Below, in pieces: positions 8,858 through 28,121 of a DNA stretch of 64,000 bases. The notes below the pieces were generated by a model. It was given only the letters and a program-made list of their open reading frames with translations, searched no databases and was not told the origin of the DNA. This DNA comes from Gammaproteobacteria bacterium. GTDB taxonomy: Bacteria > Pseudomonadota > Gammaproteobacteria > Eutrophobiales > Eutrophobiaceae. Every line of letters starts with the position of its first letter. Within the stretch, counting starts at the first letter, position 1. Both the position numbers and the translations under genes were made by a program. The stretch lies in assembly GCA_965215365.1 (NCBI GenBank), contig CBDCDS010000003.1:2176001-2240000 (forward strand), in the 5' to 3' direction.

Positions 8858-8910
8858 TTATCCGCAGCTTAGCGCAGAAAAAAAGACAATCTGCGTCACA
8901 CCTGCCGATA
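8858..8910. repeat. Degenerate GCAGAT-family inverted repeat pair
   Basis: TTATCCGCAGCTTAGCGCAG...ATCTGCGTCACACCTGCCGATA between gor and modA. Confidence 0.65.
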
Positions 8911-10337: not shown

Positions 10338-11483
10338 ATGACAGACACTGACGCCATCAGTGTGCGCCTGCGACAACCGGGGCCGATCCCGCTGGATGTG
10401 TCGCTGTCCTGCAACAGCGGCGAGATACTGGTCATTCTGGGCCCGTCCGGCAGCGGCAAGACTACCCTGCTCAGATCGATCAGCGGCTTGTACACGCCCG
10501 CGTCCGGCGCCATTCGTTGTCACGGGGAACAATGGCTGGATAGCGCCAACGGCATCAACCTGCCGGTGCAGCGCCGACGTATTGGCATGGTGTTTCAGCA
10601 GTACGCGCTGTTCCCCCACCTCACCGCCCTGCAGAATATCATGCTGGCCCTGCATAACGGTGCGCGCCGACACCGGCGCGACACCGCGCAAAACCTGTTG
10701 CGCGCCATGCACATGGAAGGTCTGGAAGAACGCTACCCGCAGCAGTTGTCGGGGGGGCAACAGCAGCGAGTGGCCCTGGCTCGAGCGCTGGCGCGCGAGC
10801 CCAGTGCACTGTTGCTGGACGAACCTTTCTCAGCCGTGGACCAGCAAACGCGCAGGAAACTGGTGCGGGAACTGGTGAGCCTGAAGCAACACTTCAAACT
10901 GCCCATTATCCACGTCACACATGACCTGAACGAGGCGCGCCGCATCGCCGACCGGCTGTGCATCATCCACCATGGCAAAACCCTGCAAAGCGCTGCGCCC
11001 GAACAGGTGATGAACCATCCCGACAGCGCCGCCATTGCCGCGCTCATCGGCCATTACAATATCTTTCGCGCCCGGGTGGCAGGGCACGATCAGCAGGCGC
11101 AGACTACCCGCATCGAATGGGGCAGCCTGACCCTGAACGCGCGCTATCGCCCGGAATTTGCCCCCGGCGTCGCGGCAGACTGGGTCATCCCCGCAGACAG
11201 TATCATCCTGCATCGTCGCGACCGTCCGTCCCAGGGGGAGCGCGAAAACCCGGTGCCGGGCCGCATTGAAGAACTGCTGCCCCTGGGCGAGCAGGCCGCG
11301 CTCACCATGAAGACCGCACAGGGCGAGTCACTCTACCTGAACATCCCCACCCACGTCGCCCGTCGCAACCAACTGAGCAAGGGCGGCGACCTCAGTGTCT
11401 CGCTGCTGGCGGAGCGGATACATTTGATGAAAATATCTAAGGAATTGTCCGCAGATGACACAGATGAACGCAGATTAAAATAA
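10338..11483 (+). CDS. modC: Molybdate ABC transporter ATP-binding protein
   Basis: GPSGSGKT, LSGGQQQRVALARAL, DEPFS, C-terminal TOBE-like region; follows modAB. Confidence 0.9.
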   Translation: MTDTDAISVRLRQPGPIPLDVSLSCNSGEILVILGPSGSGKTTLLRSISGLYTPASGAIRCHGEQWLDSANGINLPVQRRRIGMVFQQYALFPHLTALQNIMLALHNGARRHRRDTAQNLLRAMHMEGLEERYPQQLSGGQQQRVALARALAREPSALLLDEPFSAVDQQTRRKLVRELVSLKQHFKLPIIHVTHDLNEARRIADRLCIIHHGKTLQSAAPEQVMNHPDSAAIAALIGHYNIFRARVAGHDQQAQTTRIEWGSLTLNARYRPEFAPGVAADWVIPADSIILHRRDRPSQGERENPVPGRIEELLPLGEQAALTMKTAQGESLYLNIPTHVARRNQLSKGGDLSVSLLAERIHLMKISKELSADDTDERRLK

Positions 11484-11724
11484 GGAATTATCCGCAGATG
11501 ACACAGATGAACACAGATAATGACAAGAGGGATCAGGAAACTTATGAAATCATCGGGGCTGCTAAAGCCTTACAAAGAACATCGGGTCATGAGGAATCTC
11601 AGCTGATCAACTATCTGAAGGCCGCTGGGATGAACCGTGGGTTACTCATCAATTTTGGCGCCAGACAACTACAATACAAGAGACTCGTTTTTAATCTGCG
11701 TTCATCTGCGTCATCTGCGGACAA
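11445..11724. mobile_element. Inverted-repeat-bounded element enclosing a GxxExxY remnant
   Basis: Left arms at 11445-11476 and 11488-11518 (43-bp tandem duplication); right arm 11693-11724 is the reverse complement of the outer left arm with one mismatch. Confidence 0.7.
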
Positions 11725-11728
11725 ATAA
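11498..11728 (+). pseudogene. Internally deleted GxxExxY (PD-(D/E)XK-like) protein
   Basis: RDQETYEIIGAA joined directly to KALQ..EESQLINYLKAAGMNRGLLINFG..LQYKRLV; central GxxExxY/catalytic segment missing. Confidence 0.85.
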
Positions 11729-11729
11729 G

Positions 11730-13355
11730 TCAACTGTTAATAACAGGCGCCGCCGCCAGTAACGCCTGGGTGTACTCGTGTCGAGGTGCTGCTAAAACCT
11801 GACTGGTTTCGCCCTGTTCCACAATTTTACCCTGGCGCATCACGGCCACTTCGTGGGCGAAGTTGCTGATCAGGTTGACGTTGTGGGTGATAAACAGGCA
11901 GGCCAGCTTCAATTGTTGTTGTAATTCGGTCAGCAATGCCATGATGCGCGCCTGTACCGTGACATCAAGGGCACTGGTGGGTTCGTCGCAGACCAGCAGT
12001 TGCGGCCGCACTGCCAGCGCCCTGGCAATGCAGATGCGTTGCCGTTGCCCGCCGGAAAACTCGTGCGGGTAACGGTACTTGTGGCCCGGTTCCAGGCCAA
12101 CCTGTTCCAGCAGGCGGTCGATTGACGCCTGACGCTGCCCGGCAGTCTGTGCCGTACCCAGGGTGAGCATACCTTCCTCAATAATGTCCTTTACCTTGAA
12201 CTGCGGGTCCATGGAGGAAAATGGGTCCTGGAATACGACCTGCATGTACGTCCGGCGGCGGCGCAGCTGTTGCGGGCTGAGCCCGGACAGGCTCTCACCG
12301 GCCAGACAGACTGTGCCGGCCGCCGGTTGCAGCAGTTGCAGAATGCCTTTGCCAAGCGTGGTCTTGCCGGAGCCGGACTCGCCTACCAGTGCCAGGGTAC
12401 GGCCGCGCGCCAGCGTCAGCGACACACCCTCTACTGCATTGAAGTAGCTGGCCGGGCGCCCAAACCAGCCTGGTTTAATGGGGAAACGGATGTGCAGGTT
12501 GTTGACTTGCAGCAGGGGGCTGTGGTGTTTGTTGCCAGCCTCACTGACTTCAGGTTTGCGCGCGCTAACCCCGGACCCCATAGCCCTAGCTACTGCCAGC
12601 AGTTGTTGGGAATAGGAATGCTGCGGCTGACGAAAAAACTCGTTTGCAGGGCCGGTTTCCACCAGCCGGCCGCGGCGCATGACGGCGACGCGACCCGCCA
12701 CCTGGGCGGCCACAGCCAGATCGTGGGTGATAAACAGCATGGCCATGCCGGTCTCGCGCTGTAGCTTGTGCAGCAGCGCCAGAATGCGCGCCTGGGTGGT
12801 GACATCCAGTGCCGTAGTGGGTTCATCGGCGATAAGCAGCTCAGGTTCTCCGGCCAGGGCCGTGGCCAGCATGACCCGCTGTTTCATGCCGCCGGAGTAC
12901 TGGTGCGGGTAGTCATGCAGGCGGCGGGCGGGGTCCGGTAGCTCCACGGCCGCCAGTAATTCGACCACCCGCTGCCGTAGCGCCCGGCCACGCAACCCGC
13001 GCCGGCGCAGCGCCTCGCCCACCTGTACGCCTACCGTCAGCGCCGGATTCAGCGAGCTGTGCGGTTCCTGAAAGATCATGGCAAGCTGCCGCCCGCGCAG
13101 GGCGCGCAGGCGCCGTGTAGACAGGGTGGCAAGGTCGCGGTCATGCAGCCGGATGCTGCCGCTGACTGCGGCTGAGCCGGGCAACAGCCTGAGCAGGCTC
13201 AGCGCAGTCACGGACTTGCCACTGCCCGATTCACCTAGCAACGCCAAAGTCTCCCCGGCCTGAATTTGGAAAGACACGCCGGCAACGGCAGGCGCGTCGC
13301 TGCCAAAGCGCACCGTCAGGGAGTCAATATTGAGTAACTCAGCCATAGCTCGCAT
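11730..13355 (-). CDS. Dual-domain peptide ABC transporter ATP-binding protein (YejF/GsiA-like)
   Basis: Two GESGSGK motifs, [12 protein letters not shown] and [22 protein letters not shown]. Confidence 0.93.
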
Positions 13356-13364
13356 ATCTCATTG

Positions 13365-14723
13365 TTAATCTGCGTCAGCGGCAGATAAATCTCCAGCAGG
13401 TTGCCGCATCAGGTAAATGACCAGCAACAGCGCCGGCAGGCCCAGCGCGCCGGCGTACAGGAAGAACCAGGCGTAGTTGGCGACCTCGACTACGATGCCA
13501 GAGAAGCCACCGACGATCTTGGCAGGGAGAGTCATCAGAGAGGAAAACAAGGCGTACTGAGTGGCGGTATAGGTGGTATTGGTCAGACTCGACAAGTAGG
13601 CGATGAAAGCTGAGGTGGCAAAACCACCGCTGAGGTTATCCATGCTGATGACCACCGCCAGACTGGTCAGGTTCGGTTCGCTCAGCGCCAGCCAGACAAA
13701 GAACAGGTTGGTCACGGGCACCAGGATGGCGCCCACCAGCAACGGTCGGTAAATGCCGTAGCGCAGCACCAGGACGCCGCCCAGGCCGGCGCCGAGAAGG
13801 GTCATAAAAAACCCGAATATCTTGGTGATATTGGCAATTTCGACCTTGCTGAAACCCAGGTCCAGATAGAACGGGTTAGCCATCACCCCCATGGTGATGT
13901 CGCTGAGGCGGAAGCTGCCGATCAGCAACAGGATCAACAAAGCCGGCAACCCATGGCGGCGGAAGAATTCGGCAAAGGGGCTGAGTACGGCACCGGTGAA
14001 CCAGGCCGCGCACCGGCTGAGCACAGGCGCGTGACCTTGTAAGCCCAGTTTTCCTGCCAGCTCACGTTCCAACTGCGCGGCAGACTCGGATACCGGGTGC
14101 TCCGGTTCGGCAATCAACAGGGTCGTGACGATACCTATGCCCATCAGTGCCGCCATGGTGAAATACGCATACTGCCAGGATTGGGCCGCAGCAATATAGA
14201 AGGCACCGGCGCCGGCCACCAGCAACGCCACGCGGTAGCCGAACACATAGCTAGCTGCCATCGCTCCCTGTAATAGTCGCTCCACCGCCTCAATACGGTA
14301 CGCGTCAATCGTGATGTCCTGAGTGGCGGAACCGAACGCAACCAGCAACGCAAACAGCGCGAGCTGCTGCAAGTGTGCCTGCGGATCGCTCAGGGCCATC
14401 CCGGCCAGACCCAGGGCAATCAGCAGCTGAGCCGATAACATCCAGGCACGCCGTTTGCCCAGCCGCCCGTTCAGGAAAAAAATCGGTGTCCGATCCACCA
14501 CCGGTGCCCAGAATACCTTGATTGAATAGGTAATGCCTATCCAACTGAAAAACCCGATGGTGGACAGGGCCAGCCCGGCATCACGCAACCATGCGGACAG
14601 GGTGGAAAACACCAGCAGGAACGGCAGCCCCGCGGAAAAACCAAGGAAACTCATGGCAATGACGCGCGGGCGGCGGTAAACCGCCAATGCCGTGCGCCAG
14701 TCTGTGCCGGCTTTATCGGTCAT
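13365..14723 (-). CDS. ampG: Muropeptide MFS transporter
   Basis: LGFSAGLPFLL, KVFWAPVVD, SATQDITIDAYRIE, YTATQYALFSS. Confidence 0.93.
   Translation of the reverse strand: MTDKAGTDWRTALAVYRRPRVIAMSFLGFSAGLPFLLVFSTLSAWLRDAGLALSTIGFFSWIGITYSIKVFWAPVVDRTPIFFLNGRLGKRRAWMLSAQLLIALGLAGMALSDPQAHLQQLALFALLVAFGSATQDITIDAYRIEAVERLLQGAMAASYVFGYRVALLVAGAGAFYIAAAQSWQYAYFTMAALMGIGIVTTLLIAEPEHPVSESAAQLERELAGKLGLQGHAPVLSRCAAWFTGAVLSPFAEFFRRHGLPALLILLLIGSFRLSDITMGVMANPFYLDLGFSKVEIANITKIFGFFMTLLGAGLGGVLVLRYGIYRPLLVGAILVPVTNLFFVWLALSEPNLTSLAVVISMDNLSGGFATSAFIAYLSSLTNTTYTATQYALFSSLMTLPAKIVGGFSGIVVEVANYAWFFLYAGALGLPALLLVIYLMRQPAGDLSAADAD
13367..13388 (-). repeat. Truncated GCAGAT-family arm in ampG 3' end
   Basis: Minus strand TTATCTGCCGCTGACGCAGATT encodes LSAADAD-stop. 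Confidence 0.55.
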
Positions 14724-23529: not shown

Positions 23530-23552
23530 TTTATAAACTCTGGCGTGTTAAG

Positions 23553-23620
23553 TCCGCAGATGACGCAGATGAACGCAGTAAATTTGCTTTATCTGCGTTC
23601 ATCTGCGTCATCTGCGGATA
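23553..23620. repeat. Near-perfect GCAGAT-family inverted repeat (empty element)
   Basis: TCCGCAGATGACGCAGATGAACGCAG-short loop-CTGCGTTCATCTGCGTCATCTGCGGA; overlaps moaE stop. Confidence 0.92.
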
Positions 23621-24056
23621 AATATCCGGTAGTATTCCGCTCGACCCAGCGCGCGCCGCCACTGACCACTTCCTTTTTCCAGAACGGCGCCTTGTGCTTG
23701 AGGTCCTCAATGATGAAGCGGGTGGCGTCGATGGCATCGCCACGGTGTGCAGACCAGGTGGCAATAAGCACAATGTCTTCGCCGACTTCAATGTCCCCGG
23801 TGCGGTGCAGCAGCAGGATGTCGTGTACTGCCCACTGTTCGACCGCCTGTGCGCAGATCTCCTGTAAGTGCTTCTCGGTCATGCCAGGATAATGCTCCAG
23901 GGTCATGGCGCCGACCTCCTCACCGTCGTTGAAGTCGCGCATCGTGCCGATGAAAATGCTGGTGGCGCCGGATTTACCAGGATTCCCGGTCGCCGTGCGC
24001 TGGTTCATTACTTCAGCCGCGGCGTCAAAGGGCGCTGGTCTCAGCTCTACCCGCAT
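23589..24056 (-). CDS. moaE: Molybdopterin synthase catalytic subunit
   Basis: FIGTMRD, LEHYPGMTEK, HRTG, SAHR, LKHKAPFWKKE. Confidence 0.96.
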   Translation of the reverse strand: MRVELRPAPFDAAAEVMNQRTATGNPGKSGATSIFIGTMRDFNDGEEVGAMTLEHYPGMTEKHLQEICAQAVEQWAVHDILLLHRTGDIEVGEDIVLIATWSAHRGDAIDATRFIIEDLKHKAPFWKKEVVSGGARWVERNTTGYLSADDADERR

Positions 24057-28078: not shown

Positions 28079-28090
28079 GGAGCAGGTGAT

Positions 28091-28121
28091 TTATCCGCAG
28101 ATAACGCAGATTAGCGCAGAT
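28091..28121 (+). repeat. Solo GCAGAT-family arm
   Basis: TTATCCGCAGATAACGCAGATTAGCGCAGAT. Confidence 0.85.

What the first reader, a model, noticed from the sequence alone, without database searches (positions are those of the whole stretch)
11445..11728. Candidate GxxExxY-nuclease / (GCAGAT)x3 inverted-repeat mobile system seen as a decay series
Seen: a ~30-bp arm T(A/G)TCCGCAGATGACGCAGATGAACGCAGAT with 9-10-bp internal periodicity occurs in three states. It brackets a GxxExxY gene whose centre is deleted in frame (IIGAA joined to KALQ), and the arms encode the ORF's own ends (MTQMNTD...NLRSSASSADK). It forms empty IR pairs at 23553-23620 and 8858-8910. It also occurs as solo arms at 13367-13388 and 28091-28121. 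Known: GxxExxY proteins are PD-(D/E)XK-like and have no established function. Inference: IR-gene-IR decays to a deleted derivative, an empty IR and then solo arms. This mirrors autonomous elements and their MITEs, or RAYT/REP systems, and suggests the nuclease mobilises or recognises these repeats.
Basis: partly seen in the sequence, partly recalled or inferred. Interest (0 to 1): 0.85.

Follow-up and report, generated by a model that had tools for sequence, protein, structure and literature searches.

The report
Decayed nuclease cassette with iteron arms
This is a broken copy of a very small gene cassette, a nuclease gene enclosed by matching inverted repeats, which together with many gene-less hairpin relatives is scattered through this and many distantly related bacterial genomes and gives a first functional context to a widespread protein family of unknown role.

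Summary
Window 11445-11728 is a centre-deleted GxxExxY (PF13366/TIGR04256) gene. It is enclosed by about 33-bp inverted arms, each TTATCC plus three RCAGAT hexamers spaced 9-10 bp apart. The genome has 33 such arms against 0 in simulations. It has one intact gene, between atpG and atpD, with the same kind of arms.

At two orthologous sites, 23 genomes of the genus show every state from intact gene to a single hexamer.

The pattern is general:
- 12 of 12 genus genes are bracketed by iteron arms.
- 36 of 76 loci from many phyla pass a strict arm test, against 0 of 290 controls.
- Arm sequence follows the protein clade.
- RCAGAT arms co-occur with RCAGAT-type genes and not with other GxxExxY types.

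The protein models as a minimal Cas4/RecB-like nuclease and is predicted to self-associate head to tail.

That the nuclease moves the arms is not shown:
- No target duplication was found.
- Arms stay intact in genomes without the gene.
- The unrelated four-helix-bundle "23S IVS protein" family sits in the same kind of cassette.

Best reading: a selfish cassette related to both IVS elements and MITEs, with cognate iteron arms. I found no description of it in print. Interest 0.72.

The parts
11445..11475 (+). Left arm, outer copy: TTGTCC plus three hexamers (GCAGAT, ACAGAT, GCAGAT). It supplies the last codons and the stop of the upstream ABC ATPase ORF (10338-11483).
11488..11518 (+). Left arm, inner copy: TTATCC plus three hexamers. 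It is a 43-bp tandem duplicate of the outer copy and holds the ORF's ATG (11498).
11498..11728 (+). Centre-deleted GxxExxY pseudogene (76 aa). Only the family's last 48 profile positions remain, and the catalytic E, D and E of ExK are gone.
   Evidence: It is 81% identical over 130 nt and 87% over 46 nt to the intact G005 gene at the same site.
11694..11724 (-). Right arm: three perfect GCAGAT hexamers plus GGACAA, the reverse complement of the left arm. It encodes the ORF's tail.
   Evidence: It pairs with the left arm in the fold of 11480-11730 (-79.1 kcal/mol, z -4.7).
23548..23621 (.). Empty inverted pair of arms with a loop of about 10 nt. The third hexamer of the left arm is degenerate.
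   Evidence: At the same site the arms are present or decayed in G006, G002, G005, G021 and G003, and absent in 13 other genus genomes.
8858..8910 (.). Degenerate inverted pair of arms.
   Evidence: z -4.1.
13368..13388 (-). Degenerate solo arm (right-arm orientation).
   Evidence: read by eye. It does not reach the pattern searches.
28090..28121 (+). Solo arm: TTTATCC plus three perfect GCAGAT hexamers. It lies about 15 bp upstream of what I read by eye as the start codon of a minus-strand gene.

Best explanation
The locus is a dead relic of a minimal selfish cassette of about 480 bp. The cassette has one gene, for a roughly 115-125-aa GxxExxY protein, a minimal Cas4/RecB-type PD-(D/E)XK nuclease. 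Tightly around the gene lie two inverted arms of about 33 bp. Each arm is (a)TTTATCC, then three hexamer iterons in direct repeat 9-10 bp apart, then an A/T-rich inner edge.

SHOWN:
- Gene and arms are inherited as one unit across many phyla.
- The iteron sequence is specific to the protein clade.
- Cassettes decay in place by internal deletion into gene-less inverted pairs, short hairpins and solo arms, which far outnumber the genes.
- The inner part can be inverted between the arms.
- Arms sit almost only between genes or at their edges.
- The hexamers are conserved, while the spacers vary and are not compensated.

INFERRED:
- The encoded nuclease reads its own iterons. It probably does so as a head-to-tail array of protomers, one per hexamer, on both arms.
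- It cuts at or near the arm ends. The arm-bounded segment is then copied or moved without a target duplication.
- Gene-less units are non-autonomous derivatives. They are moved in trans while a cognate gene is present and persist after it is lost.

The window copy lies at a site occupied since before the genus diversified. It has lost the catalytic core and cannot act.
For: ANATOMY.
- The ORF is a truncated TIGR04256/PF13366 protein.
- The one intact gene of the genome lies between atpG and atpD (names confirmed). It has its own ACAGAT-type inverted arms.

GENERALITY.
- 12 of 12 genus loci have iteron arms.
- In 80 loci from many phyla, 76 had enough flank. Of these, 36 (17 with three repeats) have the same 5-mer phased at 8-11 bp upstream and its complement downstream. 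Displaced control windows gave 0 of 290.

COGNATE LINK.
- Four or five arm types occur in one genus, each with its own gene subtype. Two types sit side by side in G001 and in G007.
- On a tree of 87 proteins the RCAGAT label needs 5 changes, against a shuffled mean of 15.8 (0 of 500 shuffles as low). 15 of its 17 rows fall in one 18-row clade that spans at least 6 phyla.

CO-OCCURRENCE.
- In the genus, 10 of 10 genomes with a GxxExxY hit have arms, and 0 of 5 arm-free genomes have one.
- The CACAGAG arm family peaks at 172 copies in G019, which has the intact cognate gene. G007, the other genome with that gene type, has 27. Genomes without it have at most 40.
- 5 of 5 genomes from other phyla with RCAGAT-type genes hold 13-167 arms.
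- In 20 Terriglobia genomes, 8 of 11 arm-bearing genomes have an RCAGAT-type gene (2 of the 8 typed from arms on one side only). 0 of 9 arm-free genomes do, although 5 of those 9 have other GxxExxY types.

DECAY AND TURNOVER.
- Two orthologous sites show every state.
- The gene is inverted in G005 and the cargo in G015, relative to other genomes at the same site.
- Related non-coding cargo sits at different loci.
- Cargo of the G019 units keeps GxxExxY C-terminal coding remnants. One cargo matches the reverse complement of the gene's last 70 nt (71%, E 5e-6).

CONSTRAINT ON THE ARMS.
- In 42 pairs, the 4-nt spacer is identical between partner arms in 31%, against 24% with shuffled partners (168 of 1000 shuffles reach this). 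The hexamers are kept.
- 30 of 33 arms lie outside long ORFs in a genome that is 87% coding.

PROTEIN.
- E21, Y24, D61 and K73 are invariant in 50 sequences. E71, Q85 and Y89 are at 90% or more.
- The AlphaFold model has pLDDT 95.3.
- The best PDB match is Cas4 SSO0001 (E 9e-5, TM 0.64). AddAB, lambda exonuclease, MGME1 and RecE nuclease domains follow.
- There is a weak Cas4 profile hit (E 0.0081).
- Three copies are predicted to bind head to tail. The score is 0.46, best of 3 controls 0.00. That mark was reached by 20 of 30 proteins solved as pairs of one chain and by 1 of 23 solved as single chains. The runs agree in at least 95% of contacts and the partner's pLDDT is at least 84. The job held three copies and my own alignment, unlike the calibration.
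Against: - No target-site duplication was found in 28 pairs at offsets 3-8 and lengths 2-5. No clean empty site was found either: the nearest relative, G006, has one-hexamer remnants at both gene-bearing sites. Insertion was therefore never caught in the act.
- Both well-studied sites look vertically inherited. The window remnant is 81-87% identical to the G005 gene, and the flanking genes are 79-81% identical.
- Only 4 of 18 arm-bearing genus genomes have an intact cognate gene. The complete genomes G020 and G022 have 56 and 71 arms and no GxxExxY at all.
- The share of arms with perfect hexamers is no higher with the gene than without it. With the gene: G000 28/34, G001 48/65, G005 83/95, G018 43/62. 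Without: G002 82/89, G016 117/129, G021 34/38, G022 68/85, G020 55/70.
- 32 of 33 RCAGAT cargos show no convincing likeness to the gene; the one that does is the window copy, and two others give only 18-nt matches at E 0.003.
- An unrelated, non-nuclease family (TIGR02436) sits in the same kind of cassette: 20 of 36 loci pass the test against 0 of 134 controls. The architecture therefore does not need a nuclease.
- Gene and arms are physically linked, so co-variation alone cannot separate recognition from common descent.
- No nuclease-only transposition mechanism of this kind is known to me (recalled).
Confidence: 0.5

Rival explanations
1. Homing rather than transposition. The close inverted pair of arms (the 'empty' hairpin, as at 23548-23621) is the nuclease's palindromic target. 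The nuclease cuts it, and repair from a gene-bearing copy places the gene between the half-sites. This splits the target and protects it. On this reading the empty pairs are targets, not derivatives.
For: - It explains why the gene always lies exactly between inverted cognate arms.
- It explains the lack of target duplication.
- It explains why either orientation occurs at one site.
- It explains the cycle of intact, degenerate and lost states at fixed sites.
- It explains arms in genomes without the gene.
- In the genomes listed from other phyla, many arms form inverted pairs about 40-65 bp apart, start to start.
- The lambda-exonuclease/RecE-like fold fits recombination.
Against: - It does not explain how 30-170 empty hairpins spread in the first place.
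- It does not explain how the cassette, arms included, reaches new phyla that lack the target.
- Cargo of the G019 units keeps gene-end remnants, so at least those units derive from gene-bearing cassettes.
- Arms of about 33 bp are short as homology for repair (my own judgement).
Confidence: 0.17
2. An IVS-type element that works at the RNA level. The arms matter as an RNA stem that host RNase III cuts. This releases the cassette from the host transcript, so an insertion within an operon is tolerated and the promoter-less ORF is expressed. The protein has another role, or none in spread.
For: - The Coxiella 23S rRNA IVS is a 428-nt element with a 28-bp terminal inverted-repeat stem cut by RNase III. 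It has a small ORF and three tandem GACAGAT heptamers at its 5' end (PMC4990558, abstract and passages).
- The ORF family of that IVS (TIGR02436) sits between inverted arrays of tandem repeats outside rRNA as well: 20 of 36 loci against 0 of 134 controls.
- The arms here fold into long stems.
- No promoter-like site was found in 11200-11900.
- The intact gene lies inside the atp operon and is co-directional with it.
- The upstream neighbour is co-directional in 67 of 81 loci, the downstream one in 51 of 78.
Against: - A stem needs pairing, not a fixed hexamer. Yet the hexamer is kept across phyla while the spacers are not compensated.
- Three repeats at 9-10 bp spacing are kept across clades with different hexamers.
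- Arm type follows the protein clade, not the host.
- In G000 I read the arm loci as about 12 between tandem, 2 between convergent and 3 between divergent genes. That shows no preference for 3' ends.
- None of 137 loci lies within 1.5 kb of a 23S rRNA match.
Confidence: 0.18
3. The arms are a host-kept, REP-like repeat family that is moved or homogenised by some other factor. GxxExxY genes are merely passengers that tend to sit in such hairpins.
For: - Arms are abundant, with intact hexamers, in genomes without the gene.
- The same intergenic sites attract other hairpin repeats as well.
- A CACAGAG-type pair lies nested between GCAGAT remnants at the window's site in G019.
Against: - The obvious candidate, a RAYT-type Y1 transposase, does not fit. 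It was not found in the arm-rich G002, G011 and G021, and it is present in the arm-free G010.
- 0 of 7 Y1 loci have arms within about 1.5 kb, and 3 of the 5 scanned for flanking repeats have GGGGTCAGAG hairpins instead.
- A host factor would not explain why one hexamer follows one protein clade through at least 6 phyla.
- It would not explain why several arm types coexist in one genome, each with its own gene type.
- It would not explain why genomes with only other GxxExxY types have 0 RCAGAT arms (5 of 5 in the Terriglobia sample).
Confidence: 0.1

Closest known systems
ORF-bearing intervening sequence (IVS) of 23S rRNA (Coxiella, Leptospira), with the S23p / '23S rRNA IVS protein' ORF (TIGR02436, PF05635)
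   Same: - It is an element of about 430-500 nt called selfish.
- It has terminal inverted repeats of about 28 bp.
- Tandem short repeats (GACAGAT x3) make up the 5' end.
- One small ORF fills the inside, and the ORF decays.
- Its way of spreading is unknown (PMC4990558, passages).
- In the genomes searched here, TIGR02436 genes outside rRNA are bracketed by inverted repeat arrays.
   Different: - The ORF here is a PD-(D/E)XK nuclease, not a four-helix bundle.
- The repeats are three hexamers at a 9-10 bp period, not heptamers at 7-8 bp in variable number.
- The location is intergenic, not in 23S rRNA (0 of 137 loci).
- There are large families of gene-less derivatives.
- RNase III cleavage is untested here.
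Autonomous DNA transposons and their MITEs
   Same: - Terminal inverted repeats are shared by gene-bearing and gene-less units.
- There are internal-deletion derivatives.
- There are tens to more than 100 short copies per genome, in intergenic positions.
   Different: - No target-site duplication was found.
- The only gene hits just PF13366 in Pfam and NCBIfam, not a transposase family.
- No recent insertion was caught.
- Arms stay intact without the gene.
REP / REPIN elements with RAYT (Y1 transposase)
   Same: These are short intergenic palindromic repeats in many copies. A single-copy gene is flanked by its own repeats in inverted orientation, and there is no target duplication (recalled for REPIN).
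   Different: - The enzyme family differs.
- RAYT-like genes of this genus carry other hairpins and no arms.
- The arms are built of phased iterons rather than one imperfect palindrome.
Free-standing homing endonuclease genes
   Same: - A small nuclease gene has no other gene beside it.
- Distribution is patchy.
- One site cycles through intact, degenerate and lost states.
- PD-(D/E)XK homing enzymes exist (recalled; I-Bth0305I appears at rank 29).
   Different: - Homing genes are not known to carry inverted iteron arms or to leave families of gene-less hairpins.
- Cleavage of an empty site is untested.
Cas4 / RecB-family nuclease domain
   Same: - It is the best structural match (4ic1, E 9e-5, TM 0.64).
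- The E, D, ExK and Q...Y residues are conserved.
- There is a weak Cas4 profile hit.
- A published pipeline labelled a cas4 gene as GxxExxY (PMC8934634, passage).
   Different: - It is about half the size (114 aligned residues against about 200).
- No conserved cysteines for an Fe-S cluster occur among the invariant columns.
- I did not look for CRISPR genes near any locus.

Membership tests
GxxExxY protein (TIGR04256) / PDDEXK_3 (PF13366) | Profile score over the curated cut-off | tested here: met
   The window ORF scores 41.7 bits (cut-off 35) and 35.7 bits (cut-off 22), but only over the last 48 profile positions. The intact G000 gene scores 134 bits and 122.8 bits.
GxxExxY protein (TIGR04256) / PDDEXK_3 (PF13366) | GxxExxY motif and the D...ExK catalytic residues present | tested here: not met
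   These are deleted in the window ORF, so it is a pseudogene. They are present in the intact copy at C3:2036823-2037164 and conserved in the alignments.
MITE / autonomous transposon pair | The same terminal inverted repeats on gene-bearing and gene-less units, in many copies | tested here: met
MITE / autonomous transposon pair | Target-site duplication | tested here: not met
   In 28 pairs at offsets 3-8 and k 2-5, nothing was clearly above shuffled partners. The best case was 3 against 0.88 expected, reached in 10 of 300 shuffles.
MITE / autonomous transposon pair | Transposase of a known class | tested here: not met
   The only gene is PF13366, and no other family was hit in Pfam or NCBIfam.
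MITE / autonomous transposon pair | Insertion polymorphism with a clean empty site | tested here: inconclusive
   Presence and absence vary among species at three sites. The closest relative, however, has remnants rather than empty sites, and intergenic DNA is otherwise unalignable.
REP / RAYT (REPIN) | Y1 (HUH) transposase gene flanked by the repeats | tested here: not met
   0 of 7 PF01797 loci have arms within about 1.5 kb. The distributions of the gene and the arms do not match.
23S rRNA intervening sequence | Inserted in the 23S rRNA gene | tested here: not met
   No LSU rRNA match lies within 1.5 kb of 101 loci or of 36 loci. The window and atp copies lie between protein genes.
23S rRNA intervening sequence | Terminal inverted repeats that form a stem of about 28 bp around a small ORF | tested here: met
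   Compared with PMC4990558.
23S rRNA intervening sequence | Excision from the transcript by RNase III | not testable with these tools
   No RNA run was listed for this DNA.
Cas4 / RecB nuclease family | Nuclease fold with E, D, ExK and Q...Y residues | tested here: met
   Calling the Q...Y pair a family motif is recalled.
Cas4 / RecB nuclease family | Four-cysteine Fe-S cluster and CRISPR or helicase context | tested here: not met
   No cysteine is among the invariant or nearly invariant columns. The cassette holds no second gene. CRISPR context was not searched for.
Homing endonuclease gene | Cuts the gene-less allele of its own site | not testable with these tools
   This needs a cleavage assay.

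The most novel reading that the evidence does not exclude
There is one widespread class of minimal selfish cassettes in bacteria: a single small ORF between inverted arrays of short direct repeats. In this class the ORF product forms a ring or a head-to-tail array that reads the repeats one per subunit, and so drives the copying or movement of its own cassette. The GxxExxY cassettes, their gene-less hairpin families, and the ORF-bearing 23S rRNA intervening sequences with their four-helix-bundle protein would all be members. That would name the function of two large families of unknown role. It would also answer how IVS elements arise and spread, which the one IVS paper I read still calls unclear more than 25 years after their discovery (PMC4990558).
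Probability: 0.3. Interest if true: 0.88.

Novelty: new variant of a known kind. Interest (0 to 1): 0.72.

Why it matters
GxxExxY / PDDEXK_3 proteins occur in many bacterial phyla, often several per genome. The one superfamily survey I found lists their function as unknown and their phylogeny as full of transfers (PMC3424549, one table row).

This work gives the family a concrete context that can be tested:
- Each gene is the sole cargo of an arm-bounded cassette whose repeat sequence is specific to the protein clade.
- The cassettes leave families of tens to more than 150 gene-less hairpins per genome.

It matters for several reasons:
- It makes a specific protein-DNA recognition testable. 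Natural specificity variants are already at hand (RCAGAT, CACAGAG, ACAGGAT, ACGAAG, CGAAT types).
- It links these cassettes to the long-unexplained ORF-bearing rRNA intervening sequences.
- It explains odd ORF ends in annotation. Arms add codons to host genes such as the ABC ATPase here, and to the GxxExxY ORFs themselves.
- It identifies a repeat family that shapes intergenic regions, even inside the atp operon.

Tried and rejected
- RAYT/REP mobilisation: tested and rejected.
- Known RNA family: the only Rfam hit over 8000-29000 was a microRNA-precursor model on the empty pair, at 34 bits against a gathering score of 82. That is a generic hairpin hit.
- Terminator or promoter role at the finding: none was found in 11200-11900. 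This is a simple consensus scan only.
- Location in 23S rRNA: no locus.
- Gene origin of the RCAGAT cargos: 32 of 33 show no convincing likeness to the gene. Two give only 18-nt matches at E 0.003.
- Defence or phage family: PADLOC gave only a weak Cas4 hit and PHROGs gave none.
- Solved relatives by sequence: none.
- Expression: no RNA holder was listed for the atp cassette, so RNA ends could not be mapped.
- Strain polymorphism: contigs of 4 DNA runs carry the atp cassette unchanged. The few joints have sides of 23-27 letters with 638-841 other letters between, so I take them for other organisms' atp genes. Nothing can be concluded from this.
- Literature: I found no description of GxxExxY cassettes or of these repeats. 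The searches were 'GxxExxY' (3 papers, none on function), PDDEXK_3/PF13366/TIGR04256 (2 papers), six arm 15-16-mers (3 unrelated papers), PF05635/IVS-protein names (8 papers) and PDDEXK + inverted repeats + mobile (4 papers). Supplements were not seen, and subscription journals are not in the library.
- Not done: arm counts for the ACAGGAT type, the family search in G362, and a check of which arm type the small gene fragments in G003 and G014 carry.
Full report
WHAT IS THERE.

Window 11445-11728 holds a 76-aa ORF (11498-11728). It matches the GxxExxY family (TIGR04256, 41.7 bits, cut-off 35) and PF13366 only over their last 48 profile positions. Compared with intact relatives, the stretch between ...IIGAA and KALQ... 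is missing in frame. With it went the Glu of GxxExxY, the catalytic Asp and the Glu of ExK. The copy is dead.

The ORF is enclosed by inverted arms. The right arm runs 11694-11724. The left arm is present twice (11445-11475 and 11488-11518) as a 43-bp tandem duplication. An arm is TTATCC plus three RCAGAT hexamers separated by 3 and 4 bases.

The arm core has 6 matches in the window, against 0.00 expected. The genome (2.73 Mb, 3 contigs) has 33 triple-hexamer arms, against 0 in three simulations. A profile of 74 arms places the conserved outer edge at (a)TTTATCC and shows an A/T-rich inner edge.

23548-23621 is a clean empty pair and 28090-28121 a clean solo arm. 8858-8910 and 13368-13388 are degenerate.

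THE INTACT COPY.

The genome has one full-length GxxExxY gene, at C3:2036823-2037164. It lies between atpG and atpD (both confirmed over the curated cut-offs) and is co-directional with them. It is bracketed within a few bases by its own inverted arms, here of ACAGAT hexamers.

DECAY AT FIXED SITES.

I aligned three orthologous junctions across the 23 genomes of the genus.

At atpG-atpD:
- G000 has the full cassette.
- G003 has arms with an internally deleted gene remnant.
- G011 has arms with a short spacer.
- G005 and G014 have arms with about 100 bp of non-coding cargo.
- G022 has two hexamers. G007 and G006 have one each.
- G015 and G016 have doubtful traces.
- 6 genomes have a different hairpin element of about 125 bp.
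- G001 has another insert.
- 6 genomes have nothing.

At the window's own junction, 20 genomes were readable:
- G005 has an intact gene in the opposite orientation.
- G001 has a frameshifted full-length gene: two overlapping hits in different frames.
- G000 has the centre-deleted copy.
- G003 has arms plus only the gene ends.
- G016 and G022 have arms with about 115 bp of cargo, and G015 has the same cargo inverted.
- Several genomes have one-hexamer remnants, including the closest relative G006 (92-93% identical flanks).
- G019 has an empty pair of another arm type (CACAGAG) nested between GCAGAT remnants.

At the 23.5-kb site, arms are present or decayed in 6 of the 19 genomes read and absent in 13.

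The two gene-bearing sites seem to have been occupied since before the genus diversified. The window remnant is 81-87% identical to the G005 gene, and the flanking genes are 79-81% identical, which fits vertical descent with local decay. Recombination between the inverted arms evidently flips the inside.

THE ARCHITECTURE IS GENERAL AND THE ARMS ARE COGNATE.

All 12 gene loci examined in the relatives (11 in the genus, 1 in G034 of another family) are bracketed by inverted arms of three phased repeats, but the repeat differs by gene subtype:
- GCAGAT or ACAGAT
- CACAGAG
- CACGGAG
- ACAGGAT or ACATGGAT

Two types coexist in G001 and in G007.

I fetched 80 loci from named genomes of many phyla, of which 76 had enough flank. 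In 36 of them the same 5-mer is phased at 8-11 bp at least twice upstream and its complement at least twice downstream. In 17 it occurs three times. Displaced control windows in the same loci gave 0 of 290. Many of the rest show degenerate arms by eye.

On a tree of 87 proteins the arm classes cluster. RCAGAT needs 5 changes against a shuffled mean of 15.8 (0 of 500 shuffles as low). 15 of its 17 rows sit in one 18-row clade. Members of that clade are named Deltaproteobacteria, Planctomycetota, Terriglobia, Thermoanaerobaculia, Verrucomicrobia, Flavobacteriales and Gammaproteobacteria. The proteins of that clade are only about 50-60% identical, and yet the non-coding hexamer is the same.

Within 42 inverted pairs, the 4-base spacer is identical between partner arms in 31%, against 24% for shuffled partners (168 of 1000 shuffles reach this). 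The 3-base spacer matches in 69% against 51% (1 of 1000). What is kept is the hexamer and its phase, not perfect pairing. That is the signature of sequence-specific reading rather than of a mere stem.

CO-OCCURRENCE ACROSS GENOMES.

In the genus:
- 18 of 23 genomes have RCAGAT arms. The reversed-pattern control is 0 in all.
- All 10 genomes with a GxxExxY hit are among the 18, and the 5 arm-free genomes have none.
- Only 4 genomes (G000, G001, G005, G018) have an intact RCAGAT-type gene.
- G002 (85 arms), G022 (71), G020 (56), G011 (52) and G021 (36) have no hit at all. G020 and G022 are single-contig genomes.

The second arm family behaves alike. CACAGAG arms number 172 in G019, which has the intact cognate gene, and 27 in G007, which also has it. 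Other genomes have at most 40.

Outside the genus:
- The 18 other relatives have no arms (17), or a different tandem repeat (1).
- 5 of 5 genomes from other phyla chosen for their RCAGAT-type gene have 13-167 arms. In the two genomes whose places were listed, many of these form close inverted pairs.

As a replicate, I took 20 relatives of the Terriglobia genome.
- 11 of the 21 genomes have RCAGAT arms.
- 20 of the 21 also have gene data. An RCAGAT-type gene occurs in 8 of the 11 arm-bearing genomes, including all 4 with 26 or more arms. In 2 of the 8 (G350 and G359) the typing is weak: G350 has hexamers on one side only, and G359's 2 arms lie elsewhere on its contigs.
- 0 of the 9 arm-free genomes have that gene type, although 5 of those 9 hold 1-5 GxxExxY genes of other arm types.

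The link is therefore type-specific. These genomes are related to each other, so I give counts and no test.

WHAT SPEAKS AGAINST THE NUCLEASE AS THE MOVER.

- I found no target-site duplication (28 pairs) and no clean empty site.
- The share of arms with perfect hexamers (over at up to 2 mismatches) is no higher in genomes with an intact cognate gene than in those without.
  - With: 28/34, 48/65, 83/95, 43/62.
  - Without: 82/89, 117/129, 34/38, 76/91, 71/87, 59/77, 68/85, 55/70, 51/68.
- Some genomes do hold decayed populations: G006 5/20, G007 4/20, G013 12/26. Something other than a resident gene therefore keeps the arms intact, or the gene is lost and regained often.
- Cargo of the RCAGAT gene-less units is not recognisably gene-derived: 32 of 33 show no convincing likeness.
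- By contrast, cargo of the G019 CACAGAG units keeps GxxExxY C-terminal coding remnants, often at both ends and pointing outwards. One cargo matches the reverse complement of the gene's last 70 nt.

A SECOND FAMILY WITH THE SAME ARCHITECTURE.

Following a recollection, I looked at the four-helix-bundle '23S rRNA IVS protein' family (TIGR02436). In 36 loci (6 from relatives, 30 from a sample of 301 genomes of the phylum), 20 pass the same strict test with a 6-11 bp period, against 0 of 134 controls. Most of the others show degenerate 7-8-bp repeat arrays by eye. None lies near a 23S rRNA match.

The published Coxiella IVS is described as follows (PMC4990558, abstract and passages):
- It is a 428-nt selfish element.
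- It has a 28-bp terminal inverted-repeat stem cut by RNase III.
- It has an S23p ORF.
- It has two or three tandem GACAGAT heptamers at its 5' end.

The GxxExxY cassette is thus a sibling of the ORF-bearing IVS. The IVS is the closest known thing, and the source of the strongest rival reading, in which the arms act as an RNA stem.

THE PROTEIN.

- The alignments keep E, Y, D, (E)xK and Q...Y.
- The model is confident (pLDDT 95.3).
- Its best solved match is Cas4 SSO0001 (E 9e-5). AddAB, lambda exonuclease, MGME1 and RecE nuclease domains follow.
- Three copies are predicted to bind through a head-to-tail interface: residues 47-58 and 81-88 against residues 11-30. The score is 0.46, best of 3 controls 0.00. 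That mark was reached by 20 of 30 proteins solved as pairs of one chain and by 1 of 23 solved as single chains. The runs agree in at least 95% of contacts and the pLDDT is at least 84. The job was unlike the calibration.

A head-to-tail array is what direct repeats would require. This is a model, not a measurement.

VERDICT.

I commit to a selfish cassette in which the nuclease reads its own phased hexamers on both arms and promotes copying or movement of the arm-bounded unit without target duplication. Gene-less units are derivatives that outlive the gene (0.5). The rivals are homing into empty pairs (0.17), an RNA-level IVS-type element (0.18) and a host-kept repeat with passenger genes (0.1).

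I found nothing in print on this cassette. I rate it a new variant of a known kind, related to both the IVS and MITEs.

Noticed in passing
L175-L180 and L207-L236 (relatives and a sample of the phylum): Genes of the four-helix-bundle '23S rRNA IVS protein' family (TIGR02436) lie between inverted arrays of tandem 7-8-bp repeats, such as GTAGGCA x6-13, AATTACG/AATTAGG, GTGAGAT and GTGACTG. All are outside rRNA. 20 of 36 loci pass a strict test, against 0 of 134 controls.
   Followed up: partly
window 11445-11518; G000 C3:1183171/1183220, 1253688/1253740, 1793783/1793827, 181381/181408: Single arms are often duplicated in tandem together with a few flanking bases, with a period of 43-52 bp. This may be a footprint of whatever process acts at the arms.
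   Followed up: no
atpG-atpD junction of G021, G008, G002, G020, G018, G013 (L021, L022, L024-L027): A different palindromic element of about 125 bp (gcaggtc..gataGCCTTTTCAAGAC ... GTCTTGAAAAGGC..) occupies the same intergenic site in 6 relatives.
   Followed up: no
L170, L172, L173; also the 23.5-kb site in G021, G008, G014, G019, G003: REP-like GGGGTCAGAG...CTCTGACCCC hairpins were the best flanking repeat at 3 of the 5 Y1 transposase (RAYT-like) loci scanned. They recur in intergenic sites that hold iteron arms in other genomes.
   Followed up: partly
G000 C3: about 1658800-1658860, 2039753-2039800, 2508703-2508760: A further hairpin family (..CCTCTAAAAATGCC...GGCATTTTTAGAGG..) lies directly beside arms at three loci.
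   Followed up: no
window 11440-11483: The last 14 or so codons and the stop of the upstream ABC ATPase ORF are supplied by the arm (...KELSADDTDERRLK*). In L008 the GxxExxY reading frame can start at an ATG that overlaps the upstream gene's stop, just outside the arm. Arms therefore reshape host and cassette ORF ends.
   Followed up: no
L128 (G014), the window's junction: G014 has an unrelated 854-bp insertion at this junction and no arms.
   Followed up: no
L237-L256 (G019): Gene-less CACAGAG units carry remnants of the gene's 3' end next to both arms, pointing outwards. They look like two right ends joined tail to tail.
   Followed up: partly
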